A stretch of DNA of 64,000 nucleotides, from UHGV virus genome UHGV-0277313; one strand, 5' to 3'. Under the pieces are notes generated by a model. It saw only the letters and a program-made list of their open reading frames with translations, was not told the origin of the DNA and made no database searches. The DNA is from a virus. A program made the translations under genes and the position numbers. Shown here piece after piece: positions 9,094 to 63,092 of this stretch (within the stretch, counting starts at the first letter, position 1; the number at the start of each line of letters is the position of its first letter).

Positions 9094-9120
9094 AAAATCT
9101 AATTGATTAAGGACACGCTA

Positions 9121-11391
9121 ATGAAATATCTAATTTTGCTTCGGGGTCTTCCTGGTTCTGGTAAAAGTTATTGGATAAAAGAAAACAAATTAGAAGATTA
9201 TACTATTTCTTCTGATAATGTTCGTTTGTTGTTTGCAACACCGTCTATTCCTTTTCAGGCTTGTTATAAGGATAGAGGAATTTCACAAAAGAATGACAAA
9301 GAGGTTTGGGATTTAATACATTCTTTAGTTGAACGTCGTTTAATGGAAGGCATGACAACTATCGTTGATGCAACACATTTGACTGTTAAGTCTATTAATT
9401 ATTACAAAAGCTTTTGTGCAAGTAATAATGTACGTTGTATCGTATTGGATTTTAATGTTAGCCTGGAAAGTGCTATTAACAATGATTTGTTAAGAAAAGG
9501 CACTTGTCGTTATGTAGGTTGTCAGATCATTAAAATAATGAATGACAAAAAAGAAGATGTGCCTAAATGGGTTGATTATACAACTGATAAAGAGCATGTT
9601 GTCAAGCTGTTTAATGACTGTATAGACGCGGTTGATTACAATGAGAAGTATGATAGCGTTGTAATCTTCGGTGATTTGCATGGTTGTTATGAACCTTTAA
9701 AACAGTGGTTTGACAAACATCCTGTTAACGACAAAACGAAATATATCTTTTGTGGTGATTATGAAGATAGAGGTATTCAACATAAAGAGTTGTTTGATTT
9801 TCTTTTAGAACATCGCAAAGATTTTAATTTCAAATTCTTAAAAGGCAATCATTCTTGTCGTTTGTTACAGATAGCTGAACGTGATAAAGATTCTATTCGT
9901 TATCCGGAATACTATAATACGTTTGAACAAATGAAAGATTTTGATCCTATTGAACTGAAAAAGTTTGTTCGGGATCAAGATGATATGGTTTACTTTACAT
10001 TTCGTAATAAAAACTTTTGTGTATCACATGGTGGTATTAGTTGTCTTCCGACTTTAAAGTTGAATAGTAGTGAATACATAAAAGGTCACGGAACATATCA
10101 AATGTCAAATGATGTGGATAATGATTTTATGTTCAATTCTTCTATTGAAGGTGATAACATTTATCAGGTACATGGTCATCGCAACGTTACAAATAGTGAT
10201 ATTCAAGTATGTGATCGTTGTTTTAATTTGGAAGGAGGAGTTGAGTTCGGTGGTGAATTACGAATTCTTCAGATTGATAGTGAAGGTAAATGTATACTGG
10301 ATTCTATTAGAAATACTGTTTTTAAAGAATTGACGGAAGGTTCGAAGATTGTCAATGAGTTTAAGTATTCTTCATTGATTAGAAAGTCGCAAAACCCAAA
10401 CGGTATTAGTTCTTATAACTTTAATCGAGACGCTTTTTTTGATAAAAAGTGGAATAGCTTGACGTGTACCGCAAGGGGCTTGTTTGTATATGATGATACA
10501 GATAAAGTTGCAGCAAGGTCTTTTAACAAATTCTTTAATTTGAATGAAACTAGTACTTCGAAATTAGATTATATTGTGAAGAATTGGTGTGGCGTCACGA
10601 ATGTTTATAAAAAGGAAAACGGATATTTAGGTATCATTTCTGTTGATGTTCGTGATAACAGTTTCATTTTAGCATCGAAAAGTCGTACTGATAAAGAGTT
10701 CGCAACGAATATTAGTAGAATCTTTAATGAAAAATTGTCAGAAGAACAACAGAACAATTTGAAGAAATGGTTATTGAAGGATGTGGATAAACATCAAGGT
10801 AATGCATATTCTTTAGTTGTTGAAGTAATTGATCCAATTAACGATCCGCATTTTGTTCAATATGATAAAGATGATATTGTTGTTTTGGATGCATTCGTTA
10901 ATGACTTTAATGAAAAAACTGTTTCATATGATGAACTGATTTCATTACATGACTTAACAGGTTTGACAATAAAAGAAAAGATTTGTGAGACGTGTGATCT
11001 AAAGACAACAATTCATGAACTTTGTAATACCAAAGATCATATCGAAGGATTTGTTTTAGAAGGGCATGATTATAATGGCAAGACTGTTCGTGTGAAGATT
11101 AAAACAAAATGGTACTTGATGTGGAAGAAGTTCAGATCAACAGGTGATTTCGATGAACGATTCGACATTAAAGATTTTTTGACAGTTGAACAACAAAAAT
11201 ACGCCAAACAAATCTATAGCCGAACAAAACAATTGATCGATTTACGTAATGGAGATACAGTTAGTACTGATGGTTCAATAAATGTAAATGATGAAATTGA
11301 CAATTATGTTATGTTTATTTATAGAGATTTGATTGGTGATTCGCGGATTAATATACCGAAAATTATACAATCTGTTGAAAATGTGAAATAG
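9121..11391 (+). CDS. polynucleotide kinase-phosphatase / RNA ligase (Pnkp-like three-domain RNA repair enzyme)
   Basis: N-term P-loop LLRGLPGSGKSYW; central calcineurin-type phosphoesterase motifs GDLHGCY, GDYEDRG, GNHS; C-terminal nucleotidyltransferase motif I YKKENGYLG (KxNG). ATG at 9121 has SD aagga; ORF track start 9103. Confidence 0.75.
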   Translation: MKYLILLRGLPGSGKSYWIKENKLEDYTISSDNVRLLFATPSIPFQACYKDRGISQKNDKEVWDLIHSLVERRLMEGMTTIVDATHLTVKSINYYKSFCASNNVRCIVLDFNVSLESAINNDLLRKGTCRYVGCQIIKIMNDKKEDVPKWVDYTTDKEHVVKLFNDCIDAVDYNEKYDSVVIFGDLHGCYEPLKQWFDKHPVNDKTKYIFCGDYEDRGIQHKELFDFLLEHRKDFNFKFLKGNHSCRLLQIAERDKDSIRYPEYYNTFEQMKDFDPIELKKFVRDQDDMVYFTFRNKNFCVSHGGISCLPTLKLNSSEYIKGHGTYQMSNDVDNDFMFNSSIEGDNIYQVHGHRNVTNSDIQVCDRCFNLEGGVEFGGELRILQIDSEGKCILDSIRNTVFKELTEGSKIVNEFKYSSLIRKSQNPNGISSYNFNRDAFFDKKWNSLTCTARGLFVYDDTDKVAARSFNKFFNLNETSTSKLDYIVKNWCGVTNVYKKENGYLGIISVDVRDNSFILASKSRTDKEFATNISRIFNEKLSEEQQNNLKKWLLKDVDKHQGNAYSLVVEVIDPINDPHFVQYDKDDIVVLDAFVNDFNEKTVSYDELISLHDLTGLTIKEKICETCDLKTTIHELCNTKDHIEGFVLEGHDYNGKTVRVKIKTKWYLMWKKFRSTGDFDERFDIKDFLTVEQQKYAKQIYSRTKQLIDLRNGDTVSTDGSINVNDEIDNYVMFIYRDLIGDSRINIPKIIQSVENVK

Positions 11392-14599: not shown

Positions 14600-14797
14600 A
14601 CTGTGTGGTATTTGTTTTTATCTTGAATACTAGATTCATTAATTTTTTTGTTTAAATCTGCTTTGTAAAATTTTTCATAAAAATAAATAACTTTTTGAAA
14701 ATTCCTATTGACTTTCTTATTCATATTATATACTATAAGAATATAAGATAAATGGAAACCTGAAATGGTTAAAATTAAAAAGGAAAGAGAGAGAAAG

Positions 14798-16236: not shown

Positions 16237-16328
16237 GGAAATGTGGATGAGTGGTTTAAATCAGCGGTTTGCTAAACCGTCGGGCATAGAAATATGTCCC
16301 GCAAGTTCGAATCTTGCCGTTTCCGCCA
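16237..16328 (+). tRNA. tRNA-Ser (anticodon GCT), class II
   Basis: acceptor ggaaatg/cgtttcc, anticodon loop ttGCTaa, long variable arm, T-arm gcaag-ttcgaat-cttgc, G73, CCA encoded. Confidence 0.7.
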
Positions 16329-16355
16329 AAAGTTTCTGTAGAAGATACAGGTTAC

Positions 16356-16449
16356 GCCTTCGTCGTTCAATGGTTAGGACACTCGGCTTATACCCGAGCG
16401 AGCAGCTGATATCTGCGAAATCACAGTTCGAATCTGTGCGGAGGTACCA
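16356..16449 (+). tRNA. class-II (long variable arm) tRNA with anticodon UAU, discriminator A73
   Basis: acceptor gccttcg/cggaggt; D-stem gttc/ggac; anticodon stem ctcgg/ccgag with loop cTTATAc; 23-nt variable arm; T-arm cacag-ttcgaat-ctgtg; CCA encoded. Confidence 0.5.
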
Positions 16450-16457
16450 ATTTTAAT

Positions 16458-17312
16458 TTGCATTTTGAAAGTTGGGTAGATATGCAATATTTGACAAAGC
16501 CTTTTGTAAAATGGGTCGGTGGTAAAAAACAACTTCTTGAGAAATTAGGATCTTGTATGCCCAAAGATTACAATCGTTATTACGAACCTTTTATTGGTGG
16601 TGGAGCTTTATTGTTTAATGTTCAACCTAAAGATGCTGTCATTAATGATACAAACAGTCAGTTAATAAATGTTTATAATCAATTAAAAACAAACATTGAA
16701 GATGTTATAAAAACGGTGAATACTTTAGATAGTAAAATGTGTAATGAAGATTATTATCTAGAAATTCGTGACCGTTATAATTCAAAAATCAAATCAAAAG
16801 AGTTAGATGCTGAATGTGCTTCTTTAATGATTTGGGTTAACAAACATTGTTTTAACGGGCTATATAGAGTCAATTCAAAAGGGTTGTTTAACGTCCCGTA
16901 TAACAATAAAGTAAATGGCGTTTCAATTGATGAATGTAATTTACGAAACATCAGCAATTATTTAAATTTAAATAAAGTTGATATTCGTGAAGGTGATTTC
17001 GAAGCCGCTTGTTCCGATGTGAAAAAAGGCGATTTGGTATATTTTGATTCGCCGTACGTTCCAGTAAGTAAAACAGCAAACTTTACAAATTATACAAAAG
17101 ATGGTTTTAGTTTAAATGATCACAAACGTTTGGCTAAATTGTTTTGCACTCTGGATAGTTTAGGTGCGTATATTATGTTAAGCAATAACGATGTTCCTTT
17201 GGTTCATGAGTTGTATAGTCAATTTAATGTGACTTCTGTTGATGCCCGTCGTGCTGTCAATAGAGATGCAACAAAAAGGAAAGGTAAGGAAGTAATCGTT
17301 ACCAATTTTTGA
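16458..17312 (+). CDS. dam: DNA adenine methyltransferase (Dam-like, N6-adenine)
   Basis: N-terminal KPFVKWVGGKKQLL (Dam motif I), YFDSPYV catalytic (DPPY-like) motif; 284 aa. Confidence 0.8.
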   Translation: MHFESWVDMQYLTKPFVKWVGGKKQLLEKLGSCMPKDYNRYYEPFIGGGALLFNVQPKDAVINDTNSQLINVYNQLKTNIEDVIKTVNTLDSKMCNEDYYLEIRDRYNSKIKSKELDAECASLMIWVNKHCFNGLYRVNSKGLFNVPYNNKVNGVSIDECNLRNISNYLNLNKVDIREGDFEAACSDVKKGDLVYFDSPYVPVSKTANFTNYTKDGFSLNDHKRLAKLFCTLDSLGAYIMLSNNDVPLVHELYSQFNVTSVDARRAVNRDATKRKGKEVIVTNF

Positions 17313-17325
17313 TTAAACAGATAGT

Positions 17326-17412
17326 GGATGGGTCGCATAGCGGCAATTGCTGGGGACTGTAAATCCCCCGCCTGAAAAGGCTTCGTTGGTTCGAGTCCAA
17401 CCTCATCCACCA
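17326..17412 (+). tRNA. tRNA-Tyr (anticodon GTA), class II
   Basis: acceptor ggatggg/ctcatcc, anticodon loop ctGTAaa, variable arm gcctgaaaaggcttcg, T-arm gttgg-ttcgagt-ccaac, CCA encoded. Confidence 0.7.
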
Positions 17413-17441
17413 AAAATTTTTAAAAAGATGAAAAAAAGTTC

Positions 17442-17470
17442 TTGACAATTAGCATTACATTTGCTATAAA
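17442..17470 (+). promoter_or_regulatory. sigma70-like promoter (TTGACA-N17-TATAAA)
   Basis: aaaaaaagttcTTGACAattagcattacatttgcTATAAA, paralogous to promoter at 15904. Confidence 0.55.
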
Positions 17471-17984
17471 TAATACATCAAGACGAGATATTAAACATTG
17501 TAAATAAGAAACAGCCAAATGAAAAGGCCTTTACGTGGCTTGGCTGATAAGTAGCTTTCTTCATTTAGTGAATTTAGTGAAACCAACTTTTTCATTGTTT
17601 AATATCTCATATAACTTGAACTGTATAAAAACAGTACGGCTGTATAGACATAAGATGATTCTGCCTATATAGTTTCCGTCATCAGTCTGATTACCTTTTC
17701 GTGGTTTGACGGATAAGTAGCGACCTTCAACTGTTTATTTTCAAGAGCGAAGCATTGATTATAAACTGTCGCGAAACTAAAGTTCTGACATGTAACAGTT
17801 GATGAAATTTCCGCATCGGTTGTTACAATATGATAATGGTCTTGACGAATTATAACCCCAATTTAACGTACGGTAATGCGGGAAAACATAGTTGTTATAA
17901 TGACTCAAGATCTTTCAAGCTATTTGTTTAGCCGTTTTCAGGAAAGTTTTGGGGTGAAAAACTTCCTTGTTATTATTTGTAAAA

Positions 17985-18236
17985 TATGCCTTGATTTTTA
18001 ATTTTCTATAACTTCTAATAAAGTAGAATAGGAAATTTTAAAAGGTTTTAAAATTAAGTTGGAAGATTTGTGATTTTGTTATACAGAGTGACTGAATCAA
18101 TGGAAGAAAGAGGTCGTTTTGTTTAGATTGCAAACCCAATTTGATTTTAAATAAAAAGAAAATCTGAGTGAAATAAAGGTTTTCTCCTTAGAAATAAGGT
18201 TCTTTTTAGACTTAAGTCTTCTAAATTTATATAAAG
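17985..18236 (+). ncRNA. ~250 bp repeated putative small transcription unit, copy A
   Basis: ~88% identical to 38538-38790; contains mini-ORF MEERGRFV (18100-18126) and a terminal hairpin tttaga..tctaaa followed by an AT run. Confidence 0.4.
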
Positions 18237-18718
18237 TTTATATTTGTTTAGATAACTGAGTTATTTTATCGCAGTTTATTGTTTTAGACTCAAGTTCTAA
18301 ACATTTCAGATCGAATCTGAATGCTGCTTCTAATTCAATCCTTTATTCAAGGATTGTTTCCGGTGATTCGCGATAGTCAGTACCGGTACAAAATCTGACA
18401 TCTAGATAAATTGAAATATGTTTATCTGTTAGGTTCCTAAAACCTATCATCAAAATTTAGGCGTCAAGATTGTTTCTTGCAGGTTTCTTGTTCACCTGAC
18501 AAAATGAACAAGCAGTGCAAACGCTGTAGAATCGTTGGCGGGTTTGTCGTTGCCCATATACCGACCAGAAATGATACTTGCTGATATTCTGATAGAAGTT
18601 CCGCTAGACTGATGATCTTCATGTAAAGTGTGTCAAGCTTTACATTATGACATTCTTAATTGAATGCTGTCAAAGGTTTTGTGTATTGTACCTGCGTAGC
18701 AAAACAATACACTTTTAA

Positions 18719-18794
18719 GCCGAAATAGCACAGTTGGTAGTGCAGTTGATTTGTAATCATCAGGTCGTGGGTTCAAATCCCTCTTTCGGCACCA
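18719..18794 (+). tRNA. tRNA-Thr (anticodon TGT)
   Basis: acceptor gccgaaa/tttcggc, D-stem gcac/gtgc, anticodon loop ttTGTaa, CCA encoded; one mismatch each in anticodon and T stems. Confidence 0.6.
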
Positions 18795-19005
18795 GTTTAT
18801 TTAGGTGTTTTGCAAAGTTTAATCTCATTCGCTCGTTAAACTTTCCTTTCAAAATTCTCATCATCTCCAATTTTGATAAATGCAAAACAGTTCAATTCGT
18901 TTGTTTACCTTCACGTGGTTTTGAATGTAAGTAACTTAAGGTTTTTAACAACTGCCGTAGATCGTTTACTTAAGTGAAACTAAATAACAAACAATGCCCT
19001 TATGA

Positions 19006-19082
19006 TGGAATCGGTAGACATAACAGATTCAGAATCTGTTGGAATTACTTCCGTACCTGTTCGAGTCAGGTTAGGGGCACCA
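19006..19082 (+). tRNA. tRNA-Leu (anticodon CAG), class II
   Basis: acceptor gccctta/taggggc, anticodon stem acaga/tctgt with loop ttCAGaa, long variable arm, T-arm acctg-ttcgagt-caggt, A73, CCA. Confidence 0.7.
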
Positions 19083-19085
19083 TTT

Positions 19086-19179
19086 GGGTGGTTGGCAGAG
19101 TCTGGCTTATTGCAACGGTCTTGAAAACCGTCGAACATAGGAATATGTTCCGTGTGTTCAAATCACACACCACCCGCCA
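19086..19179 (+). tRNA. tRNA-Ser (anticodon TGA), class II
   Basis: acceptor gggtggt/accaccc, anticodon stem acggt/accgt with loop ctTGAaa, long variable arm, T-arm gtgtg-ttcaaat-cacac, G73, CCA. Confidence 0.7.
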
Positions 19180-19185
19180 ATTTAT

Positions 19186-19279
19186 ACCCCGTTGTAGTCA
19201 TGGTGACCATCAATTGAATGCCTATAGCTCCAGTCAATTGGTACGGGAATGCTGTTCGAATCAGTCTACGGGGTGCCAA
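19186..19279 (+). ncRNA. tRNA-like element, fold unresolved
   Basis: acceptor accccgt/acggggt + g + CCA and T-loop ttcgaat present, but D and anticodon arms could not be folded by eye. Confidence 0.3.
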
Positions 19280-19351
19280 TTTTTTAAACAAGCCTTTACA
19301 CGCGTCATGATGACGATAGTCCAATATACATTTGAAGGCTTTTTTAAAAAT

Positions 19352-19444
19352 TGGAAAATGACTGAGTGGTTATAAGGTGGGTGACTTGGCGAAGTGCCAA
19401 TTAACTTAAAATGTTAAGACGTAGGTTCGAATCCTGCTTTTCCA
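19352..19444 (+). ncRNA. tRNA-like element (class-II-like), anticodon arm non-canonical
   Basis: perfect acceptor tggaaaa/ttttcca, D-loop agtggtta, T-arm gtagg-ttcgaat-cctgc; candidate anticodon stem ttggc/gccaa has only a 5-nt loop; no CCA encoded. Confidence 0.3.
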
Positions 19445-19480
19445 ATTTTTTCAATTTTCTTGAATTTTAAATAAGCGTAG

Positions 19481-19554
19481 CACAATGGTAGTGCATCGGT
19501 CTCCAAAACCGAGGATGAGAGTTCAATTCTTTCCGCTTATGCCATTTCCTACAT
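19481..19554 (+). tRNA. tRNA-Trp (anticodon CCA)
   Basis: acceptor ataagcg/cgcttat, D-stem gcac/gtgc, anticodon stem tcggt/accga with loop ctCCAaa, T-arm gagag-ttcaatt-ctttc, CCA. Confidence 0.65.
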
Positions 19555-19560
19555 TTTTAA

Positions 19561-19637
19561 CGGGGTTTAGCGCAGTCTGGTAGCGCGCCTGCCTTGGGAG
19601 CAGGAGGTCGAGTGTTCGAGTCACTCAATCCCGACCA
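19561..19637 (+). tRNA. tRNA-Pro (anticodon TGG)
   Basis: acceptor cggggtt/aatcccg, anticodon stem cctgc/gcagg with loop ctTGGga, CCA. Confidence 0.65.
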
Positions 19638-20587
19638 TATTAAGAATTCAGGTGAAAGCTAGTGAGTAACCTGTATCGTTTAACCCCACTGTGCGTCAAC
19701 AGGGTTTTGTACAGACAAAAATGAAACTGTATCGGGACGGAAAGTGTCCGATTATGCCGAAATGCCGACGGGCAAATCGTAAAGTTGTGGACCCGGTGGA
19801 CCACATTAAAAACCCACCTACCGTTTCCTTTGAAAAAACAAGGATTGTAAGATTGGATGATTTAGACTTATGATGAAACAGAATTAGGTTTTATTGATTA
19901 AGCATCAAATAAATCTTTGGTTCGTTCGGGACTTAGTCCGCACATTGAGGGATTAACGTCAGGTTAATGTACTTAGTAAGCCAAAGATGAATTGAAAAAT
20001 TCTGATATAAAACGTATTTTGGTTTTATAAATGTTCTTTTGGTGCTTAATCAATAGAAAATGGAGCATATTGTAATTTCTGAGAATGATATCTAATTAGA
20101 AATGAAAATACCCTAGGGTTCGGTTGAATATGTGATAGAACTCACCATTTCCTTTGAAAAACAAGGATTAAGAGCAAGGATTGCCCTGAGATATTATGAA
20201 GGCGTATTATGAGGAAAAGAAACATAATGTGCTTTTATAATAAAATAAGGGTGTGGTTTAATTATATAGGGTAAATTGGTTCTTTTCCAACTCATTTATT
20301 ACTAGGATTAAAATCAGGTAGTGTATCCTGCCTCGTCCTTTTAAAAATTCCTTTGAAAAACAAGGATTGAAGTTTGCATTTGGTGTAACTTTGGTTAAAT
20401 AGTCTTAAGCCTATGCGCAAGGTGTTTTAAGAAACGTTTGACGGGGGGCTATAGCAGATTCTAGAGGCTGTAAATAGTTTGTAGCATACTTAGAGTGGAT
20501 TTTAAGAGGTTATGTGTGAATCATAGGTGCAAAAATAAATTTTTAAATAAAGTAATCATTTAGATGTGATTACACTATTTGTCAGGC

Positions 20588-20620
20588 TGTTCGAGTGTTC
20601 GAGTCACTCAATCATGACTA
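20588..20620 (+). repeat. duplicated 3' fragment of tRNA-Pro
   Basis: ctgttcgagtgttcgagtcactcaatc matches 23 nt of the tRNA-Pro 3' half (19612-19634). Confidence 0.5.
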
Positions 20621-20625
20621 ACTAT

Positions 20626-20700
20626 TCCGTGATAGCTCAATGGTAGAGCAATCGGCTGTTAACCGATTGGTTGTAGGTTCGAATCCTACTCACGGAGCCA
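20626..20700 (+). tRNA. tRNA-Asn (anticodon GTT)
   Basis: acceptor tccgtga/tcacgga, anticodon stem atcgg/ccgat with loop ctGTTaa, T-arm gtagg-ttcgaat-cctac, CCA. Confidence 0.7.
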
Positions 20701-21114
20701 TTGATATCTTATAAATGTTTTGGTTCGTGTGTGTGGTTCCAATTAATCAAAAAATGCACTGCTTGAGCTTAATCGGGCTGTAATTAAGTAACCTTTGGAA
20801 GACGTGGTTCGACTTCCCCTATAGAGGTGATATCGGTGAATGTCCTCGGCTCTTTCCTTCAAGAGTGGCGTAAATGTAAGTAACGATTACAAAAGGATGA
20901 TGACAATAATTTGTCCGTGAGTGATTCCCAAAAGAAGTACGTTAAGCTTCTAAACTTTAAAACATTTCTTTGAGTGCTAACATGCTCAATGAAACAAGGT
21001 TTTAACAGTTTCCTTGTAAATCTTAAACTGTCATAGTGCTTCATCTTATAAAGGTTTTTTGTTGTAATTCCAAAGATGAAGTTTGTTTTTTAAACTGAAC
21101 TAAGAGGTCTGGAA

Positions 21115-21462
21115 ATGATCGTTAAAAAAATAACAGAACGTACCGTTTATCCGTCGTCATATGAATCTTTATCTTTGCCAGAAAAGAGCGATATTGATTC
21201 ATTTATTAAGCAGTCAATTAAGGTTGCTTATAAGGCAGGAAAAACATTTCGTGTAGGTGATTATGTTGGAAGGAAAGCTTTTCCTGATTGGTCAAATACA
21301 CCTTTGGATCCGATTTATCAATATCATAAAAGAATTGGTACAACTGATCCAACGAAACAGGCAGGTATTGATGTAGGTCATCTGTTTAAAAATGCAATGG
21401 ATGAAAGTCCATTTTGTTTTGAAATTCATAAAGGGCATGTAAATTACTATACGCCTGTTTAA
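21115..21462 (+). CDS. hypothetical protein embedded in tRNA island
   Basis: 115 aa ORF with SD agaggt 8 nt upstream. Confidence 0.5.
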   Translation: MIVKKITERTVYPSSYESLSLPEKSDIDSFIKQSIKVAYKAGKTFRVGDYVGRKAFPDWSNTPLDPIYQYHKRIGTTDPTKQAGIDVGHLFKNAMDESPFCFEIHKGHVNYYTPV

Positions 21463-21545
21463 ACAGTGTGAGTTTGATGCAACAGCGTTTATTCCTAACG
21501 CAAATTCCATTCTTTTCAGTTCTGTGGTTGCTAAAACTGAATAAT

Positions 21546-21632
21546 GCACTTGTGGTGGAATAGGTAGACACGCAAGCTTGAGGTGCTTGTGAAAGAAATT
21601 TCGTGCTTGTTCGAGTCAAGTCAGGTGCACCA
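21546..21632 (+). tRNA. tRNA-Leu (anticodon GAG), class II
   Basis: acceptor gcacttg/caggtgc, anticodon stem caagc/gcttg with loop ttGAGgt, long variable arm, A73, CCA. Confidence 0.65.
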
Positions 21633-22726
21633 GTTTAGCAACACGAGAGACCAGCTTCCTTGTTTCTTGTTTGTTGCCAGCCAATCGACGAAGGCTGTAG
21701 TTACAGATTTCTGGTTTTCGGTGAAATCGAAAAGTCAAATAACAATCAGTTTATTTGGCTGGTTGTTTCATAATAGGTTGCGGGTGATGAACCGATCCTT
21801 TCTATAAAAAGTAAGGGTGGGCTAATAAAATGCTTCCTTGATTGGAAGTTAAGCAAATCGATGGTTATCATCTTCAATCCCGCAATCGCGATTGTAATTT
21901 TATCGTCCCACCTTTATTTTACAAGTTTCTTGGTTTTGCTAAGCTTATTTAAAGGGCTTAGAGACCTTTTATCGCGGATTAGTGAAATGGTATCTTAAAA
22001 CTTCACACAAACCAGAGAAAAATAATGCAAGGTGAATAAAATTTTTCTTGCTTTTAGATTCTGGTTATGTTACTTTGATTAAGTTGATGGCGGATATGAG
22101 ATATTAAAGCTGTGCCATATATTTCTGGTAATGTCCGTTATTGATACCAGTCTTTGGTGGTTATCAGATATGCCCCAATATGAGTAAGGCTATTGATTGG
22201 TTACTTTGATTGGCATTTGAAAATACCGTAAGTTGTTCGGCAATGTGTGCGACAGTAACTGAGTTTAACCACATCAGGAGAGATGAGCTTGCTCATCGAT
22301 ATAGTCCCTGATACTGGAAAAGCCGATTTCATTGGTTTTCATTGAAATTGGTAACTATCACATTAGGCTCTTACCTTAAAATTACCAGTTCGAGTCTGGT
22401 GTCCGCCCCCAATTCAATTCCTTACATGGAATTGTTTCTGGTAAGTTCGCGCGATAGTCAGTACCAGAACCTAAACCTGACAAAGTCTTAGCATTGACTT
22501 TAAACTGCTTAACCTTATGCATAGAGATAGGATAAATGCTTCAGACTTTAAGCTGTCATCTTAAAGGGCTTTGCAAATTTACCGTAAATTGCCAGAAAAG
22601 AAGAGGCTGTGATAGTGTCTAGAATTCTTCCGATTGTGAGTTCGATAATCTCATAGATTTGACCGTCCATCACTTTTAAAGTGGCTCTCTTAGCTGGTTC
22701 TGAGTGGTCATAAAACCAGCTTTAAT

Positions 22727-22803
22727 GATTCCATAGCTCAACTGGATAGAGCCACAGACTTCTAATCTGTAGGTTGCAAGTTCAAGTCTTGCTGGGATCG
22801 CCA
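22727..22803 (+). tRNA. tRNA-Arg (anticodon TCT)
   Basis: acceptor gattcca/tgggatc, D-stem gctc/gagc, anticodon stem acaga/tctgt with loop ctTCTaa, T-arm gcaag-ttcaagt-cttgc, CCA. Confidence 0.7.
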
Positions 22804-23104
22804 AAGTTTCTTTTTGTGATGATCTTACCTTTCGGGTCATCACCAGCCAATAAGCGAAGGCTGATGTTACAACTTTCTCAAGTGTGAAAGTGCAGAGCTT
22901 GTTCGTGGATAAGGTTATTGCTTATTCCATACTATGTATGACAGGTTTTCCTTTGCTCCTTTAAAAATCGATCAATGAAGGTGTCAGCAGAATGCTTGTA
23001 TGTACTACAAGTTAAGCCTTCGTAAAAAGGAAGAAACATTGCTTTAGCATGCCTGTCATAGCGATGGTAATTTTGCCATCCCTTCATTGATCGTGAATAT
23101 TATT

Positions 23105-23178
23105 TTCGGGATCGACTAAAGGTAGGTCAACACACTTTGACTGTGTTAATGTTGGTTCAAATCCAGCTCCCGAAACCA
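23105..23178 (+). tRNA. tRNA-Gln (anticodon TTG)
   Basis: acceptor ttcggga/tcccgaa perfect, anticodon stem acaca/tgtgt with loop ctTTGac, T-arm ttggt-tcaaatc?-cagct approximate, CCA. Confidence 0.6.
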
Positions 23179-24957: not shown

Positions 24958-25614
24958 ATGACTATTTATAAAGGTTCACAAAAAGTAAAGCAGATTGCCA
25001 GTAAAAATAAATCTGTTAAAAGGATTTATTGTGGAACGAAATTAATATTTGGAACAAAAGCCAGTAAATTATTGGTTTATACAACATCTGGTTCAATAAC
25101 GATACCTAATAATACAATATCATGTATAGTTCATGTTGTTGGAAGTGGTGGAAGTTCTGGTGGTACTAATCCATATGCTCATGAACTTCATTGTGCATCT
25201 GGTGGTGGGTCAGCAGGATATTCACGAAAACAATATAATTCTAGCCTATCTGGACAAACTATCAATTTTACAGTAGGTCAACCTATATCGTCATATTGCC
25301 AAAATGGTCAAAATTCATCTTTTCTTGCTCAAATCGGTGGAATGGGTTTTGCAGGAATAGCTGCAACAGGCGGTGCATCTCAACCTGGTGGAGTCGGCGG
25401 TGCAGCTTCAGGAGGTGATGTTAATACAAATGGTTCACAAGGAGAGCAAGGTTGCTGGCTAGCTTGGGGCGGCGGCAGTGGTGGTCAAGGTAGAGGTGCA
25501 ACAGGTCATACAATAAATGGTGTTCAATATGGGTTTGGTGGAACATGTACTGGCGTAGGTTCCCCAACATCTGGTAGTGGTTGTGTCATCGTTGAGTTAA
25601 TTTATTGGGCATGA
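24958..25614 (+). CDS. glycine-rich structural protein (VVGGGG-motif family)
   Basis: 218 aa; N-term IYKGSQKV...IYCGTKLIFG, then HVVGSGGSSGG and Gly-rich body; divergent from fiber gene. Confidence 0.6.
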   Translation: MTIYKGSQKVKQIASKNKSVKRIYCGTKLIFGTKASKLLVYTTSGSITIPNNTISCIVHVVGSGGSSGGTNPYAHELHCASGGGSAGYSRKQYNSSLSGQTINFTVGQPISSYCQNGQNSSFLAQIGGMGFAGIAATGGASQPGGVGGAASGGDVNTNGSQGEQGCWLAWGGGSGGQGRGATGHTINGVQYGFGGTCTGVGSPTSGSGCVIVELIYWA

Positions 25615-26399: not shown

Positions 26400-27482
26400 A
26401 TGGCTAATGCTGGTTGTGCTCGTTGGGCTTATAACTATGTTGTCGGTAAAGAAACTGAATCTTTAAAGAGCAATAAATATATTCCTGTTAATGATTTAAG
26501 AAAAGAAGTTACAAAATTAAAACAAACAGATGAATTAAATTGGTTATTTAATTATGATTGTGATATTGTTAAGCAATCAATGAAAGATGCTGATAAAGCA
26601 TTCAGAACATTTTTTAAGAATAAACAGAAATTTGGATTTCCTAAATTTCATTCTAAACATTCATCTAAACAATCTTTTTATGTTGATGGTGTTAAATTAA
26701 AAGTTTGGTCGAATAAAATCAGAGTACCAAAAGTAGGTTATGTTAAGTTATATGAAAAAGATTATATTCCAACGGATGTTAAAAGTTATACCAATCCAAG
26801 AATTTTATTTGATGGAATAAGTTGGTATATTTCTGTTGGTGTAAAAGAAGATGATCCTAAAAAGATTACAAATAATGTTGTTATTGGCATTGATTTAGGA
26901 TTAAAGGAATTAGCAACATGTTCCAATGGACTTGTTATCCATAATATATCCAAATCAAAAAGATATAAAAAGTTAGAAAAGAAATTAAAAAGACAACAAA
27001 GGCAAATGTCAAGATCCTTAGAAAGGAATAAGATTGGAAAGAAATTTGTCAAGACAAAGAACTTTGAGAAATATAGAAAGAGATATTTAAAGACAAGTAT
27101 TAAGATGAATAATCTGAAGATAGATTATTTCAATAAATCTATTGTAGATATCATGAAAACCAAGTGTTGTACAATAGTTCTCGAAGATTTAGCTGTAAAG
27201 AATATGCAGAAAAATAGAAAAATATCTAATGCTTTTCAGAAATCTGCTATTTCTCAGTTTAGATCAAGATTGATTCAGAAAGCTGAAATGCTTGGTGTCA
27301 GTATATCTATCGCAGATAGATTCTTTCCAAGTTCAAAGATGTGTTCTCATTGTGGACATATTAAAAAAGATCTGACATTGTCAGATAGAATATATCATTG
27401 TGATATATGTGGGTTTGAGGTTGATCGTGATTTAAATGCTGCGATCAATCTCAAGAATACCGTGAGATCCACGGGAATTTAA
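26400..27482 (+). mobile_element. tnpB: TnpB (IS200/IS605 OrfB family RNA-guided RuvC nuclease)
   Basis: FGFPKFHSKH block; RuvC-I IGIDLGLKELATCSNG; C-terminal zinc finger CSHCGH...CDICGF followed by DRDLNAAINL (RuvC-III). N-terminus may be disrupted (KVYKTKLNLTYN* in another frame just upstream). Confidence 0.75.
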
Positions 27483-27580: not shown

Positions 27581-28540
27581 ATGAGTAATGTTGATCTAAT
27601 TGAATGGTGGTTGCATCAATTTAAATTTACCGAACAAGATATGAACTTGTTGCAATCGTATGAAACTGATTTTATTATTACAAATAAAGATTACGATATT
27701 GTAAGAGAAAAAGCTTTGTCGATGTTGCCTGTACATTCAATTGATTATCATATTCATTTTGATACTTGTGCAACAAACATAATTGATAATTTATTTTTCA
27801 AGTATGTCGATGATGACACATTAGTCATTACAACAATGAGCGAACATCCTTCTGTAAAAAAGAATTTAGAGAAGTGCAAGAATGTAATATACATGTGTTG
27901 TAACGGAAAAGTGATTGAAGATTTTTATAAGCAATCGGACAAAATAGCTAATTTTAAAAAGGTATTTGTTTATAATATAGCTTTATCTGTTGGTGATGGG
28001 CATATAACATATAATGACAATTTATTGGAGCTGAAAAGGAATCTAGATTCATTAGGTATCAAATCAGTTTTTGTATTAGATGCTGTACAAGAATTGTTTA
28101 TGTTGCCGCGTGATTATTCAATCTATGATTATATTATTGGTACTGCACATGCATTCGTCACGAAATACGATACTGGAGTACTTTTAAGTAAAGAGTATAT
28201 ACCGTCAGCTAAATCGTGTTTATCACAAGGTGATCAGTATTTAGATTTATTGTCAATGTTGATAAAACATAAAGAACAATTATATCAATTTAAATATGTA
28301 ATGGTGCAAGTATTTGGAAAATATTTATCGACAGATAGCGCTTTAAGTGTAACAGAAAACGGGCCGTATGTATTCAACTTGATTGATAAAAAGAATCGAT
28401 TGGTTGGAATTACTGAAGCAGATCCAATTGCACAACCTGAAAATACTAATGCAACATTAAGAGCTTGCGAATCTTTATTGGACCAAAATACGTTTATAAA
28501 TAAAGTGGAAACGATTAAATATCTGTTGTCGGAGAACTAA
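27581..28540 (+). CDS. cysteine desulfurase-like (aminotransferase class V fold) protein, paralog 1
   Basis: VITTMSEHPSVKKNLEKCKNV and VLDAVQELFMLPRDYSIYDYIIGTAHAF resemble IscS/NifS ITSxxEHxAV and VDAVQS...SGHK, but Lys of SGHK is Ala. Confidence 0.5.
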   Translation: MSNVDLIEWWLHQFKFTEQDMNLLQSYETDFIITNKDYDIVREKALSMLPVHSIDYHIHFDTCATNIIDNLFFKYVDDDTLVITTMSEHPSVKKNLEKCKNVIYMCCNGKVIEDFYKQSDKIANFKKVFVYNIALSVGDGHITYNDNLLELKRNLDSLGIKSVFVLDAVQELFMLPRDYSIYDYIIGTAHAFVTKYDTGVLLSKEYIPSAKSCLSQGDQYLDLLSMLIKHKEQLYQFKYVMVQVFGKYLSTDSALSVTENGPYVFNLIDKKNRLVGITEADPIAQPENTNATLRACESLLDQNTFINKVETIKYLLSEN

Positions 28541-28542
28541 AC

Positions 28543-38471: not shown

Positions 38472-38500
38472 TTGACATATAGCTTTTTATATGATATATT
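38472..38500 (+). promoter_or_regulatory. sigma70-like promoter (TTGACA-N17-TATATT)
   Basis: agTTGACAtatagctttttatatgaTATATT, upstream of repeat copy B. Confidence 0.5.
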
Positions 38501-38537
38501 ACAAAATATAAATTCTCATCCAAATGTTATTTTTAAA

Positions 38538-38790
38538 ATATATCTTGATTTCTAAATTGATATGAGGTAATCTAAAAGAATAGAAGTTTATCTATAAAGT
38601 TTTAAAATTAAGTTGGAAGGTTTGTGATTTTGTTATACAAGGTGACTAAATCAATGGAAGAAAGAGGATACTTTGTTTAGGTTACAAATTCAACTTGATT
38701 TTAAATACAAAAGAAAATCTGAGTGAAATAAAGGTTTTCTCCTTAGAAATAAGGTTGTTTTTAGATTCATGTCATCTAAATCTATATAAA
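38538..38790 (+). ncRNA. ~250 bp repeated putative small transcription unit, copy B
   Basis: paralog of 17985-18236; mini-ORF MEERGYFV (38654-38680); terminal hairpin tttagat-tcatgtc-atctaaa with compensatory changes relative to copy A. Confidence 0.4.
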
Positions 38791-38840
38791 TTTTATAATA
38801 GTTTAGAGTGGTGAGTTATTTTAAGAGAGGTATTTTTGTT

Positions 38841-38957
38841 TTGCTAAGTTTAGGTGTTGTCTTTACTGTTGTTGCAGTATTAGGTTTCGTTTGGGCAATC
38901 AAATTGTCTAAAGTTGTAGAAAAGGCTGATAAAGCCGATCATGAAAATAAAAACTAA
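38841..38957 (+). CDS. small hydrophobic protein (possible SPFH partner)
   Basis: ~38 aa LLSLGVVFTVVAVLGFVWAIKLSKVVEKADKADHENKN from TTG at 38841 with SD agagagg; below ORF-track cutoff. Confidence 0.3.
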   Translation: MLSLGVVFTVVAVLGFVWAIKLSKVVEKADKADHENKN

Positions 38958-60945: not shown

Positions 60946-61047
60946 ATAGTCTGTCAGGTTGTACAACATTTGATTTAACCAGAACAGAGTTTCACCTTAG
61001 GCAATGCAAGATATGAAACCGTTAATTGTTTTCAAATTTAGAAACCT

Positions 61048-61130
61048 TATAAAATTTTATGATTTTATTTATGTTGAATCATAGAAAATTAAAAATCAAG
61101 ACTTGTTTTAAAAATAATAAGATCCAAAGT
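61048..61130. repeat. ~75 bp imperfect direct repeat, left copy
   Basis: aaattttatgattttatttatgttgaatcatag...tcaagacttgttttaaaaataat vs 63018-63092. Confidence 0.5.
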
Positions 61131-61629: not shown

Positions 61630-61692
61630 ATTGTAGTGTTTGAGAAAAAGATCAGTTTGAAATTTGCTTCTCACTGATCTCTTTAAAATAGC

Positions 61693-63006
61693 TCAACATT
61701 CTAAACTATTATAAATTTTATATAAATTTACAAAAGATTTAGATGACTTGAGTCTAAAAACTTCAGATTTAAACAAACCCAAAGAACGTCTGTATTTCAC
61801 TCCAGATGTTTTTGCTATATCAAAGAGTTCTTTCCAAGAACTATAAACCCAGCTTGCTGATTCCTTCCATAGGTTGAACAAACTTTCAGCTTTTATAAGT
61901 TCTGGATAAAACCGACCTTTGATATAACGGAAATTCGCACGACGTGCAATTTCCAAACTTGCTGCTATCGGGTCTGGTGCTTCGTTAAGCACATTCCCAA
62001 TGAATGAAGAATAAACTGGATTGACTTCTATGAAGTCTATTTTGTTAAGCAAGCATAGTTTCTTTAAAGCAGAAACCAAGCTATCTCTTTTCCATTTATT
62101 CTTCGTTAATCTATTGAATGATTTACCTTTTCCTGAATTACCAATTTTGAAATTCAAATCTTCAATGCCAAATTTACCAACATGGAAAAATTTGCATTTT
62201 TTGATTATATCTTTCGCAATCTCTTTAAGCTCAAAGATTTGCTTGTTGTTTTGGTGCTTAGAGTCTTTATGAGAAGAAGATTTATGAAAATTTTTGGTAA
62301 AATAGGAAAGGTCATACTGCTCTTTAAGTAATATCTTCCTCTTATCACCAGTCCATTTAGAAATAGAAAATCCAATATAATTTGGATTCATATCAATTGC
62401 GCCAATAACATTTAATTTTCCATTATAATTGGAACAATAGATTTTGAAATCATCGAAAGCAATACAGATTTTATCTAATTTTAATTCAACACTAAAATTA
62501 GATAACTTCTGCTTGACTTGCTCTTCTAAGCTGATTAGTTCATATAAGTAATTCTTATGAAAGATAGGTAACTTCAAATAGATATGTTTAGTTTTAGAAA
62601 ACTTAAAGATAATCTGGTTATTTGAGATATCCAACTTGAATTTACGATTTCCACCTTTTGGCGTTTCACCTTGAGAATAAATCCCTAAAAATCTATTTTC
62701 TTTGAAAATATTTTTATTTAACTTATGTTTTAATCTCTGAAAGAAATTAAATTTACCTCCAAATATAACATTTTCTTTATTTGCTGCAAGCAAATAACTT
62801 GCTTTCTTAATAGCACACTGAATAAACCACGAATCCGAAGGAACATTTGATAAGCTTTTAGAAAGCAATCTAATGTCTTTTTCAGATTTTTCATCTTGAA
62901 AACGGTTATATGCAAATCTTACCATATTAGACGACTTACGAATTTCATCTCTGATGAAGATTCGATCATCGTCTGAACAAGTATAAGGTAAGCTAATTGT
63001 TTTCAA
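61693..63006 (-). mobile_element. divergent TnpB/RuvC-like nuclease lacking the C-terminal zinc finger
   Basis: RuvC-I-like GAIDMNPNYIGFSI, RuvC-II-like KFGIEDLNFK, RuvC-III-like region FIGNVLNEAPDPIAASLEIARRANF; no CxxC pairs; 437 aa. Confidence 0.45.
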
Positions 63007-63017
63007 TTTATAAACCT

Positions 63018-63092
63018 TAGGAAATTTTATAGTTTAATTTATGTTAAATTAGATTTAGTTAGATGTCAAGACTTATTTTAAAAATAATCTCT
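63018..63092. repeat. ~75 bp imperfect direct repeat, right copy
   Basis: aaattttatagtttaatttatgttaaattag...tcaagacttattttaaaaataat. Confidence 0.5.

What the first reader, a model, noticed from the sequence alone, without database searches (positions are those of the whole stretch)
17985..18236. A ~250 bp unit present twice (17985-18236 and 38538-38790) that looks like an autonomous small-RNA gene
Two distant loci share ~88% identity over ~250 bp. Each copy has a promoter-like cTTGATTt box and a conserved 8-codon mini-ORF (MEERGRFV / MEERGYFV). Each ends in a hairpin whose stem is maintained by compensatory changes (tttaga/tctaaa versus tttagat/atctaaa), followed by an AT run. Stem conservation with compensation argues for a functional RNA terminator or hairpin rather than coding constraint. 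Copy B lies immediately upstream of the SPFH operon and copy A sits inside the tRNA island.
Basis: seen in the sequence. Interest (0 to 1): 0.6.

Follow-up and report, generated by a model that had tools for sequence, protein, structure and literature searches.

The report
Protein-less mini-transposon carrying a guide-RNA scaffold
The repeated ~300-bp unit is a stripped-down copy of a transposon found elsewhere in the same phage genome: it has lost the nuclease gene but keeps the promoter end and the folded RNA that this kind of nuclease normally uses as its guide, so it is a small mobile RNA gene rather than an ordinary regulatory RNA.

Summary
The repeat is real (E 1.6e-81), but longer and less similar than reported: 17970-18268 and 38527-38823, 83% identical overall and 88% in the RNA part. 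It is not a free-standing sRNA gene. It is an internally deleted, MITE-like derivative of an IS607-family element whose full-length copy lies at 63087-61684 on the minus strand. That copy encodes a 437-aa TnpB/Cas12f-fold protein.

Each mini keeps the ~75-nt left end, which holds a promoter, and the last ~225-235 nt of the gene. In about 60 homologous phage loci this 3' region folds into a conserved four-hairpin RNA with strong covariation, which is the position and behaviour of a TnpB guide RNA (omega/reRNA).

Copies A and B differ at 11 paired positions, and all 11 differences are wobble-preserving transitions.

A near-identical phage contig has the empty site for copy B. The insertion there is a clean 294 bp, with TTA at both junctions.

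The "mini-ORF" is the tip of the long hairpin. The cited "compensatory" change is not compensatory.

Guide-RNA function with the TnpB-like protein supplied in trans is inferred, not shown.

The parts
17970..18268 (+). Mini-element copy A (299 nt counting TTA at both junctions), in the tRNA island between tRNA-Tyr and tRNA-Thr
   Evidence: Alignment with copy B, L103 and the full-length copies. It is absent from the more distant relative L010. It is present in the siblings L115 and L116.
38527..38823 (+). Mini-element copy B (net insertion 294 nt, with TTA at both junctions), in the 5' UTR of the small-TM-protein/SPFH operon
   Evidence: The empty site in L108 reads ...CCAAATG TTA AGAGAGG..., with flanks about 99.5% identical to the window. 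Identical occupied copies are found in L107 and L109-L112.
17991..18019 (+). Left-end promoter of copy A: TTGATT, 17-nt spacer, TCTAAT. The -10 box is TATAAT in LR756497.1 and in L103.
   Evidence: Read directly from the sequence, and homologous to TTGATT-17-TATAAT in L025 and TTGACA-17-TAACAT in the full-length copy. It did not pass the generic scan.
38545..38573 (+). Left-end promoter-like site of copy B: TTGATT, 17-nt spacer, TAATCT (weak -10)
   Evidence: Read directly from the sequence and aligned with the other left ends.
18047..18151 (+). Long irregular hairpin of copy A (about 105 nt, many G-U pairs). The 'mini-ORF' lies at its apex.
   Evidence: It is the counterpart of the ~115-nt hairpin in the full-length genes.
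38601..38705 (+). Long hairpin of copy B
   Evidence: It is also hit by model R2, which was built from full-length genes only (24 bits, E 0.003).
18157..18199 (+). Hairpin 2 (9 bp, loop GAGUGAAAUAA) and hairpin 3 (CCUUA-GAAA-UAAGG) of copy A. Both lie within the 47-nt block that is identical in A and B.
38712..38754 (+). Hairpins 2 and 3 of copy B
18209..18262 (+). Terminal compound hairpin of copy A, closing GACUUAA/ACUGAGUU and followed by AUUUUA at the right end
38764..38818 (+). Terminal compound hairpin of copy B
18269..18288 (+). Right flank of copy A. This is the putative guide segment if the RNA works like a TnpB omega RNA.
   Evidence: Inference only. There is no other match in the held sequences.
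38824..38843 (+). Right flank of copy B, the putative guide. It overlaps the RBS and start of the small TM ORF.
   Evidence: Inference only. It is identical to the sequence 3' of TTA in the empty site of L108.
61684..63087 (-). Full-length TnpB-only element: left end with promoter, 437-aa ORF, right end
61693..63006 (-). 437-aa TnpB/Cas12f-fold protein with invariant D205 and D345 and near-invariant E282, and no zinc finger
61684..61928 (-). Structured RNA module (omega-RNA-like) inside the 3' end of the ORF. It has the same four-part architecture as the minis.
   Evidence: -80 kcal/mol, z -6.05
63041..63069 (-). Promoter of the full-length copy: TTGACA, 17-nt spacer, TAACAT
   Evidence: Read and aligned with the other left ends.
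61022..61120 (-). Solo left end (promoter region plus the first ~14 nt of the ORF). The rest of the element is missing.
   Evidence: (D7)
38472..38500 (+). Resident operon promoter TTGACA, 17-nt spacer, TATATT (with TG), just upstream of copy B. It would read through the mini.
   Evidence: It is conserved in the empty-site genomes L001 and L108.

Best explanation
Each unit is a non-autonomous, protein-less derivative of an IS607-family insertion sequence that lives in huge (jumbo) phages. The parent element, with a full-length copy at 63087-61684 on the minus strand, consists of a short left end carrying a sigma-70-type promoter and a 437-aa TnpB/Cas12f-fold RuvC nuclease gene. The last ~245 nt of that gene double as a conserved structured RNA that ends 9 nt after the stop codon, at the right end of the element.

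In the minis, the coding sequence from the start codon to about codon 360 has been deleted. The promoter-bearing left end is therefore fused directly to the complete RNA module.

Shown:
- The homology to both ends of the parent element.
- The shared four-hairpin architecture.
- Family-wide covariation in the RNA.
- Structure-preserving substitutions between mini copies.
- A clean 294-bp presence/absence polymorphism with TTA at both junctions.

Inferred:
1. The mini is transcribed from its own left-end promoter, and copy B also by read-through from the operon promoter.
2. The RNA is the guide (omega/reRNA) scaffold of the TnpB-like protein, and its 3' end extends into the flank, which acts as the guide.
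3. The full-length copy supplies the nuclease in trans.
4. The RNP cuts genomes or sister copies that carry the empty site (TTA-type motif followed by the flank). Recombinational repair from an occupied copy then restores or spreads the mini (homing/retention).
5. Jumps to new sites need an IS607 serine recombinase supplied in trans.
For: Homology to the parent element:
- nhmmer and blastn with the unit hit the 5' flank (63091-63005) and the 3' end (61876-61682) of the 437-aa ORF on the minus strand.
- Multi-copy alignments give common ends: TTATT... on the left and ...TGAGYTATTTTA on the right.

The protein is TnpB-like:
- TIGR01766 hit at E 3.6e-4.
- A family profile against PDB hits Cas12f at E 0.008.
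- The AF2 model has pLDDT 87. Its Foldseek hits 1-31 are all Cas12f, Cas12k, ISFba1 TnpB, Fanzor2 or Cas12g, with the best at E 2e-9.
- D205 and D345 are invariant and E282 is nearly invariant.
- JGI names family members 'IS605 OrfB family transposase'.

IS607 context:
- An 80%-identical homologue (L024) is preceded by, and overlaps, a MerR-HTH plus Resolvase serine recombinase.
- 9-11 of 78 viral loci have such a gene.

The RNA:
- The 3' 287 nt of the full-length gene folds at -80 kcal/mol, z -6.
- The minis and five full-length copies share the same four-part fold.
- Model R1 finds the module at the 3' end of about 60 homologous genes. 91% of cells are paired, against 64% in shuffles and 37-45% in slid controls. 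There are 347 double-sided changes against 108 in shuffles.
- Model R2 (long hairpin) gives 84% paired against 65%, and 375 double-sided changes against 129.

Selection in the minis:
- Paired sites carry 11 transitions and no transversions, and all 11 keep the pair. Unpaired RNA sites carry 6 transitions and 11 transversions.
- In a neutral simulation, 0 of 200,000 runs kept all 11 pairs. Allowing transitions only, the probability is 0.0026.
- The + strand is about 30 kcal/mol more stable than the minus strand.

Mobility:
- L108 has the empty site, in near-identical flanks.
- A third mini sits at an unrelated site in another 189-kb phage contig.
- Both sites are unoccupied in a more distant relative.
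Against: - No transcript, RNA-protein binding or cleavage data exist. The guide role is argued by analogy with characterised TnpB systems.
- No serine recombinase gene is present in the 64-kb window.
- The -10 boxes of copies A and B in this window are weak (TCTAAT, TAATCT).
- The element ends in a hairpin followed by a U-rich tract. If that terminates transcription, the RNA would carry no flank-derived guide.
- The right end (TTTTA) also contains the TTA seen at the left junction, so a TAM of only TTA would not protect occupied sites from cleavage.
- Sequence-level similarity of the protein to canonical TnpB is marginal (hhalign E 0.013), and the zinc-finger/TNB domain is absent.
- The covariation counts were made on alignments fitted to the models, which inflates them.
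Confidence: 0.75

Rival explanations
1. It is an inert relic. The minis are decaying deletion remnants of tnpB-like genes, copied passively by recombination, and the RNA fold merely persists from the parent.
For: They clearly derive from a coding gene by deletion. The -10 boxes in this window are degenerate. The left-end part is only 68% identical between A and B. Site-B copies in six other contigs are 100% identical, so little time has passed for decay.
Against: A and B have diverged by 17%, yet all 11 changes at paired sites keep the pairing, while unpaired sites take mostly transversions (0 of 200,000 neutral simulations). The deletion removes exactly the protein-only part and keeps the promoter plus the whole RNA module. 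The same deletion form occurs at three unrelated sites in two phage lineages, so it spread after the deletion. Hairpin 3 was remodelled into a GNRA-capped stem rather than lost.
Confidence: 0.1
2. It is a mobile regulatory cassette. The unit matters mainly in cis, bringing a promoter and a hairpin/U-tract attenuator that retune expression of downstream genes (the SPFH operon for copy B, tRNAs for copy A).
For: Copy B sits between the operon promoter (38472-38500) and the RBS of the first ORF, in the same orientation. Copy A has the same orientation as the tRNA genes. The unit starts with a promoter and ends with a stem followed by UUAUUUUA. The occupied B allele is the common one among sampled siblings.
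Against: A promoter-plus-terminator role does not need about 225 nt of four conserved hairpins with family-wide covariation. The same RNA module lies inside the coding 3' end of some 60 tnpB-like genes, where it cannot be an upstream regulator. No terminator passed the scan. Such a cis effect could exist as a side consequence and does not exclude the main explanation.
Confidence: 0.08
3. It is an autonomous trans-acting sRNA gene: a stand-alone regulatory RNA with its own promoter and terminator, unrelated to transposition.
For: There is + strand-specific stable structure and a promoter-like box, and no Rfam family matches. From general knowledge, small stable RNAs are known in the T4 tRNA cluster.
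Against: Both halves are homologous to the ends of a transposon-borne gene in the same window. It is an insertion polymorphism. The structure is shared with the 3' ends of hundreds of tnpB-like genes.
Confidence: 0.04
4. The conserved hairpins act at the DNA level, as recognition or synapsis sites for the transposase at the right end, and not as RNA.
For: IS607 ends carry subterminal repeats bound by TnpA (PMC6188088). IS200/IS605 ends use DNA hairpins.
Against: Pairing relies heavily on G-U, which makes the sense strand about 30 kcal/mol more stable than the antisense strand in the minis. Serine recombinases act on duplex DNA. The module is about 245 nt, far longer than known end-binding sites.
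Confidence: 0.03

Closest known systems
PATE-like, protein-less IS200/IS605 derivatives that still encode omega RNAs (Meers et al. [quoted passage not shown]
   Same: Both keep the two transposon ends and the guide-RNA scaffold, have lost all protein genes, occur as several copies per genome, and presumably depend on TnpB and a transposase supplied in trans.
   Different: Those elements belong to the Y1-transposase, single-strand 'peel-and-paste' families and have palindromic ends. This one belongs to a lineage associated with an IS607-type serine recombinase. It lives in a huge phage, carries a left-end promoter fused directly to the RNA, and its RNA family is not in Rfam.
IS607 TnpB with RAGATH-18-derived reRNA (ISFba1; PMC11061315; PDB 8iaz)
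   Same: Both pair a serine-recombinase-associated tnpB with a guide-RNA scaffold at or after the 3' end of the gene. 8iaz is among the fold matches (E 4e-6). The RuvC D-E-D triad is retained.
   Different: There is no RAGATH-18 or any other Rfam match. There is no zinc finger. The RNA lies almost wholly inside the ORF and ends 9 nt after the stop codon. The junction motif is TTA rather than the AGGAG or GAGGG TAM.
ISDra2 / IS200-IS605 TnpB-omega RNA systems (PMC8612924; PDB 8exa, 8h1j)
   Same: The fold is the same. The omega RNA overlaps the 3' end of tnpB and runs to the right end, and the homing/retention model is the same.
   Different: The transposase class differs, the protein similarity is very low (hhalign E 0.013), and the scaffold is much longer, with a ~115-nt hairpin.
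Zinc-finger-less, virus-enriched TnpB clades in the survey of Altae-Tran et al. 2023 (PMC10691335, e.g. RIIIr-4)
   Same: The proteins are phage-borne, lack the C4 zinc finger, and are sometimes linked to serine recombinases.
   Different: RIIIr-4 is described as having the RuvC-III Asp replaced by His. Here the Asp (D345, PDPIAAS) is invariant. Clade membership could not be tested.
PeSL promoter-stem-loop mobile regulatory cassettes of T4-type phages (recalled from memory, not checked here)
   Same: Both are short repeated promoter-plus-hairpin modules scattered in intergenic regions of large phages.
   Different: PeSLs are recombination substrates with no transposon parent or guide-RNA-like scaffold. 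This unit has a defined parent IS and precise insertion junctions.

Membership tests
TnpB / OMEGA RNA-guided nuclease system | Protein with a TnpB/Cas12f fold (WED/REC plus split RuvC) and a conserved D-E-D triad | tested here: met
   The AF2 model has pLDDT 87. Foldseek PDB hits 1-31 are all Cas12f, Cas12k, TnpB, Fanzor or Cas12g, with the best at E 2e-9. D205 and D345 are invariant and E282 nearly so. TIGR01766 hits at E 3.6e-4, below its curated cutoff.
TnpB / OMEGA RNA-guided nuclease system | C4 zinc-finger (TNB) domain between RuvC-II and RuvC-III | tested here: not met
   There is no Pfam Cas12f1-like_TNB hit, whereas both canonical TnpBs in the window have one, and the region has no CxxC motifs. 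The literature says some large TnpB clades lack it (PMC10691335), so it is not strictly defining.
TnpB / OMEGA RNA-guided nuclease system | Conserved structured non-coding RNA overlapping the 3' end of the gene and running to the transposon right end | tested here: met
   fold; found in about 60 loci with covariation well above the shuffled and slid controls. The alignments were fitted to the models, which inflates the counts.
TnpB / OMEGA RNA-guided nuclease system | Guide taken from the flank 3' of the right end, and TAM-dependent RNA-guided DNA cleavage | not testable with these tools
   There is only a hint. TTA lies at every left junction, and the base before it is never T in 6 of 6 copies, whereas the right end always reads TTTTA. 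The chance of that pattern is about 0.06.
IS607-family insertion sequence | Serine-recombinase TnpA (N-terminal MerR-like HTH plus resolvase domain) immediately upstream of tnpB | tested here: met
   This is met for the family: L024 and 9-11 of 78 loci. It is not met in this window, where tblastn finds nothing. The window copies are TnpB-only or protein-less.
IS607-family insertion sequence | No target-site duplication, with the same short core at both termini and in the target | tested here: inconclusive
   The occupied site has TTA at both junctions and the empty site has one TTA. This fits exchange across a short identical core (GG in IS607, PMC6188088) but cannot be told apart from a 3-bp duplication.
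IS607-family insertion sequence | No terminal inverted repeats | tested here: inconclusive
   The ends are TTATTTTTAAAATA... and ...GAGTTATTTTA. They share a direct TTATTTT, and a 7-nt inverted match lies 7 nt inside the left end. In sequence this AT-rich neither is significant (read).
MITE / PATE-type non-autonomous element | Keeps both ends of a parent element, has no ORF, occurs as several dispersed copies, and shows presence/absence polymorphism | tested here: met
   Ends. No ORF of 30 aa or more lies on the + strand within copy A; in copy B only a TTG-initiated 39-aa frame (38695-38814) is listed. Three insertion sites. Empty site.
Any Rfam family (RAGATH-18, IS605-orfB RNAs, 6S, Y RNA, riboswitches) | Covariance-model score at or above the gathering threshold | tested here: not met
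   Only tRNAs pass in the window. The best sub-threshold hits have E above 0.1 and come from unrelated families.
Intrinsic-terminator-ended sRNA gene | G+C-rich stem followed by a U run | tested here: not met
   The scan found no terminator-like sites in either region. The terminal stem is A+U-rich and is followed by UUAUUUUA.

The most novel reading that the evidence does not exclude
The minis may act as phage-against-phage gene-drive or marker-exclusion devices. In a mixed infection, the mini's RNA would programme the resident TnpB-like nuclease to cut co-infecting sibling genomes that carry the empty site (the L108-type allele). Those genomes would then be converted or destroyed, and the linked loci (the SPFH operon and the tRNA island) would hitch-hike. 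A protein-less guide-RNA gene would thereby multiply the number of loci one nuclease can 'defend' in a phage population.
Probability: 0.3. Interest if true: 0.7.

Novelty: new variant of a known kind. Interest (0 to 1): 0.5.

Why it matters
If the inference holds, this is a natural case of a guide-RNA-only mobile element working with a nuclease encoded elsewhere in the same huge-phage genome. Occupied and empty alleles coexist in near-identical wild genomes. That makes the in-trans homing model for TnpB-family nucleases directly testable in a phage population.

It also defines a large, uncatalogued guide-RNA family (about 245 nt, dominated by a ~115-nt hairpin) for a compact 437-aa nuclease that lacks a zinc finger. 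The protein family has over 900 clusters at 50% identity (932 representatives at E <= 0.001), so it may interest genome-editing work.

There is a practical point for annotation too: such minis look like orphan sRNA genes, and they break metagenome assemblies.

Tried and rejected
- Nucleotide searches of INPHARED phages with the unit and with 15 kb of context found nothing.
- The first IMG/VR pattern (20-mer from hairpin 2) gave no hit. Later patterns found only one further mini, L103. The single JGI metagenome scan returned the same contig. GTDB genomes hold no copy.
- Exact-protein look-ups for the SPFH and Dam proteins returned nothing.
- Rfam at permissive thresholds gave only chance-level hits.
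- A direct PDB phmmer search with the protein returned only spurious spike-protein matches. hhalign against the window's canonical TnpB was marginal.
- The first AF2 model, built from a shallow alignment, was poor (pLDDT 56). It was replaced by a deeper one.
- A MAFFT alignment of the mini against the full-length long hairpin was not structurally consistent, so model R2 was built from full-length copies only.
- Considered and dropped: retron msr/msd (no RT), T-box or riboswitch leader (no Rfam hit; the unit is an insertion), a type I/III toxin-antitoxin RNA, and a link to the two canonical TnpB genes at 26.4 and 33.6 kb (no sequence similarity to their flanks).
- The extra R2 hits in L044 and L073 and the extra R1/R2 hits in L053 turned out to be 3' ends of further full-length genes, not minis.
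- The putative guides match nothing else in the held sequences.

Full report
**1. Observation**

The two loci are true repeats on the + strand, and they are the only two of this form in the window. blastn within the window gives E 1.6e-81.

The 88% quoted holds only for the 3' two-thirds of the unit. The 5' quarter is 68% identical.

The unit is longer than reported, at 17970-18268 and 38527-38823.

The TTGATT box, the MEERG(R/Y)FV letters, the terminal hairpin and the final TTATTTTA are all present. Copy A lies between tRNA-Tyr and tRNA-Thr in a 13-tRNA island. Copy B lies between a strong promoter (38472-38500) and a small TM ORF followed by a Band_7/SPFH gene.

**2. Strand and structure**

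The + strand of either copy folds at -54 to -56 kcal/mol (z -3.9 and -4.3). The minus strand folds at only about -24 kcal/mol (z about -0.5). The pairing therefore depends on G-U pairs, which points to a single-stranded, sense-specific structure.

The fold has four parts:
- a ~105-nt irregular hairpin, with the 'mini-ORF' at its apex;
- a 9-bp hairpin with the loop GAGUGAAAUAA;
- a CCUUA-GAAA-UAAGG hairpin;
- a compound terminal hairpin followed by AUUUUA.

No Rfam family matches.

**3. Where the unit comes from**

A sensitive search with the unit finds a third, diverged relative on the minus strand, split in two. The 5' ~85 nt match 63091-63005. The 3' ~180 nt match 61876-61682. Between them lies a 437-aa ORF (63006-61693).

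There is also a solo copy of the 5' part at 61120-61022.

The unit was aligned with this copy and with its closest homologues from IMG/VR and ENA (L023, L024, L025, L027). All share a left end beginning TTATT... and containing a promoter. That promoter reads TTGACA-17-TAACAT in the window's full-length copy and TTGATT-17-TATAAT in L025. All share a right end ...TGA GYT ATT TTA, which is the stop codon plus 9 nt. Beyond these ends the sequences are unrelated.

The last 287 nt of the full-length gene fold at -80 kcal/mol (z -6.05). The fold has the same four-part architecture as the minis, including a ~115-nt hairpin.

The minis are therefore the left end (about 75 nt) fused to the whole 3' RNA module (about 225-235 nt). 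Everything from the start codon to about codon 360 has been deleted. The 'mini-ORF' corresponds to the decayed ...LWKES... codons read in another frame.

**4. The protein**

The local Pfam copy and PHROGs give nothing for the 437-aa protein. Several other lines point to TnpB:
- NCBIfam TIGR01766 (TnpB-related) hits weakly, at E 3.6e-4.
- The family is large: 1254 hits and 932 representatives at 50% identity with E <= 0.001. It is often multi-copy in phage contigs of 100-500 kb. It is labelled PF27229 'SSO2105_N' in the precomputed tables, and some members are called 'IS605 OrfB family transposase' by JGI.
- A family profile hits the RuvC-II region of Cas12f and Cas12b in the PDB (E 0.008-0.05).
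- A shallow-alignment AF2 model was poor but already matched only Cas12/TnpB structures.
- A deeper alignment gave pLDDT 87 and pTM 0.78. Its Foldseek hits 1-31 are all Cas12f, Cas12k, ISFba1 TnpB, Fanzor2 or Cas12g, with the best at E 2e-9.
- D205 and D345 are invariant and E282 is nearly invariant.

There is no zinc finger. Direct profile-to-sequence similarity to a canonical TnpB from the same window is marginal.

In L024, whose protein is 80% identical, the gene is preceded by and overlaps a MerR-HTH plus resolvase serine recombinase. 9-11 of 78 viral loci have one. That is the IS607 arrangement. The sequence upstream of that tnpA resembles the left end of the TnpB-only copies.

The window itself has no such recombinase.

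**5. Is the RNA real across the family?**

Model R1, built from the 3' 165 nt of eight copies, finds a match at the 3' end of about 60 of the homologous genes. On that alignment:
- 91% of cells are standard pairs, against 64% in column shuffles and 37-45% when partners are slid;
- 347 cells have changes on both sides, against 108 in shuffles.

Model R2 was built from the long hairpin of five full-length genes only. It finds the hairpin in most loci, and also in mini copy B (24 bits). It gives 84% paired against 65%, and 375 double-sided changes against 129.

These alignments were fitted to the models, so the numbers lean high. The effect is nonetheless visible by eye in hairpin 2:
- window and L023: CAUCUG/CAGACG;
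- L025: CGGUGG/CCGCCG;
- L024 and L027: CGGCGG/CCGCCG;
- minis: AAAAUCU/AGGUUUU.

All of these flank the same loop. In the genes the changes are achieved through synonymous Arg codons.

A structured RNA that overlaps the 3' end of tnpB and runs to the right end is what defines omega/reRNAs (PMC8612924, PMC10055086, PMC11061315).

**6. Selection in the minis**

Between A and B, the 140 paired positions carry 11 differences. All 11 are transitions and all keep the pair through wobble. The 90 unpaired RNA positions carry 17 differences (6 transitions, 11 transversions).

In a neutral simulation, 0 of 200,000 runs kept all 11 pairs. Allowing transitions only, the probability is 0.0026.

A third mini (L103/L106) is about 96% identical to copy A over the part that is not cut off, and lies in another 189-kb phage contig. 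It adds three more pair-keeping changes and one loop-closing break.

**7. Mobility**

A moderately distant relative (IMG/VR 3300013426_000013) lacks both copies, but its flanks are too diverged to define junctions.

An exact-protein look-up with the 111-aa gene next to copy B was decisive. Six near-identical contigs carry an identical copy B, including NCBI LR756497.1 (309 kb). One contig, L108, has the empty site in flanks about 99.5% identical to the window:
- empty: ...CCAAATG TTA AGAGAGG...
- occupied: ...CCAAATG TTA TTTTTAAAATA...GAGTTATTT TTA AGAGAGG...

This is a clean 294-bp insertion with TTA at both junctions. It fits exchange over a short shared core, as described for IS607 (GG there; PMC6188088), though a 3-bp duplication cannot be excluded.

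Copy A is present in all siblings recovered. In two of them its -10 box is the consensus TATAAT, where the window has TCTAAT.

Several contigs end inside the mini, as expected for a repeat.

**8. Mechanism**

Shown: parentage, architecture, covariation, structure-preserving divergence, and the insertion polymorphism.

Inferred:
1. The mini is transcribed from the left-end promoter, and copy B also by read-through from the operon promoter.
2. The RNA is bound by the TnpB-like protein made from 63006-61693.
3. The right flank serves as the guide.
4. Empty sites are cleaved and then repaired from an occupied copy.
5. New insertions need a serine recombinase supplied in trans.

There is one hint for a TAM. 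All six left junctions read VTTA (G, G, A, A, C, C before TTA), while every right end reads TTTTA. That difference would spare occupied sites, but the chance of the pattern is about 0.06.

Weak points:
- There are no expression or biochemical data.
- The -10 boxes in this window are weak.
- The hairpin and U-tract at the right end might terminate transcription before any guide is made.
- No recombinase is present in the window.

**9. Comparison with what is known, and novelty**

Protein-less IS200/IS605 derivatives (PATEs) that still encode omega RNAs are already noted in the literature (PMC10055086). Zinc-finger-less, virus-enriched TnpB clades have been catalogued (PMC10691335). IS607 TnpBs guided by RAGATH-18 RNAs have been characterised (PMC11061315).

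This case differs in several ways:
- it belongs to a serine-recombinase-linked lineage in huge phages;
- its RNA family is unknown to Rfam;
- a promoter is fused directly to the RNA;
- natural occupied and empty alleles coexist.

Full-text searches found no description of it. I rate it a new variant of a known kind, of moderate interest.

Noticed in passing
window 26400-27482 (+) and 33561-34754 (+): Two canonical zinc-finger TnpB genes (OrfB_IS605 plus Cas12f1-like_TNB; NCBIfam guided_TnpB E 1e-66 and 6e-28). They are unrelated in sequence to the 437-aa family, so the window holds three TnpB-superfamily genes of two kinds.
   Followed up: partly
window 61022-61120 (-): A solo left end of the IS (promoter region plus the first ~14 nt of the ORF) with nothing behind it. 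It faces the 3' end of the 59680-60945 gene.
   Followed up: partly
window 45432-51047 (+); also 27581-29400 (+): Four tandem radical-SAM paralogues (CxxxCxxC; Pfam Radical_SAM E 5e-7 to 1e-3) are followed by two ~315-aa paralogues. Those two are related to 27581-28540, which sits beside a QueC-like gene (28543-29400). This may be a nucleic-acid modification cluster.
   Followed up: partly
window 9103-11391 (+) and 16237-23178: A kinase/phosphatase/RNA-ligase fusion (tRNA-repair type) lies next to a 13-tRNA island. Five ARAGORN calls were not confirmed by the Rfam tRNA model at gathering score: Tyr 17326, Leu 18996, Ser 19086, Phe-aaa 19378, Leu 21546. A 94-nt tRNA-Ile(tat) is unusually long.
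   Followed up: no
window 18015; L116 and L103: The -10 box of copy A is TCTAAT in the window but the consensus TATAAT in LR756497.1 and in the L103 mini. This is either a promoter-down variant in this genome or a sequencing difference.
   Followed up: yes
L103/L106, L113, L114, L117: Four independent metagenome contigs end inside the mini-element. The repeat breaks assemblies of these phages.
   Followed up: yes
window 14689-14753 and 61162-61226 (+): A repeated promoter-like box (TTGACT or TTGATT, 17-nt spacer, TATACT or TATAAT, with a shared upstream TTCTATTGA) precedes two unrelated genes. It is probably a phage promoter class.
   Followed up: no
window 24958-25614 (+), 32162-32905 (-), 58958-59599 (-): Three proteins with the Gly_rich_2 domain are scattered through the window. 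One lies next to each of the TnpB-type genes at 26.4, 33.6 and 61.7 kb, and the same adjacency is seen in L023.
   Followed up: no
L120, L121, L131 and others: Close homologues of the 437-aa protein sit in MAG bins labelled Erysipelotrichaceae, Melainabacteria, Clostridia and Bacilli, on contigs up to 360 kb. These are most likely huge-phage contigs binned with bacteria. Distant relatives (27-30% identity) occur in Rhizobium and Acetobacter genomes.
   Followed up: no
window 59817-59906 and 63842-63931 (+): A 90-nt direct repeat (80% identical) lies within two tail-fibre-like ORFs on either side of the full-length IS. These are probably paralogous N-termini.
   Followed up: no
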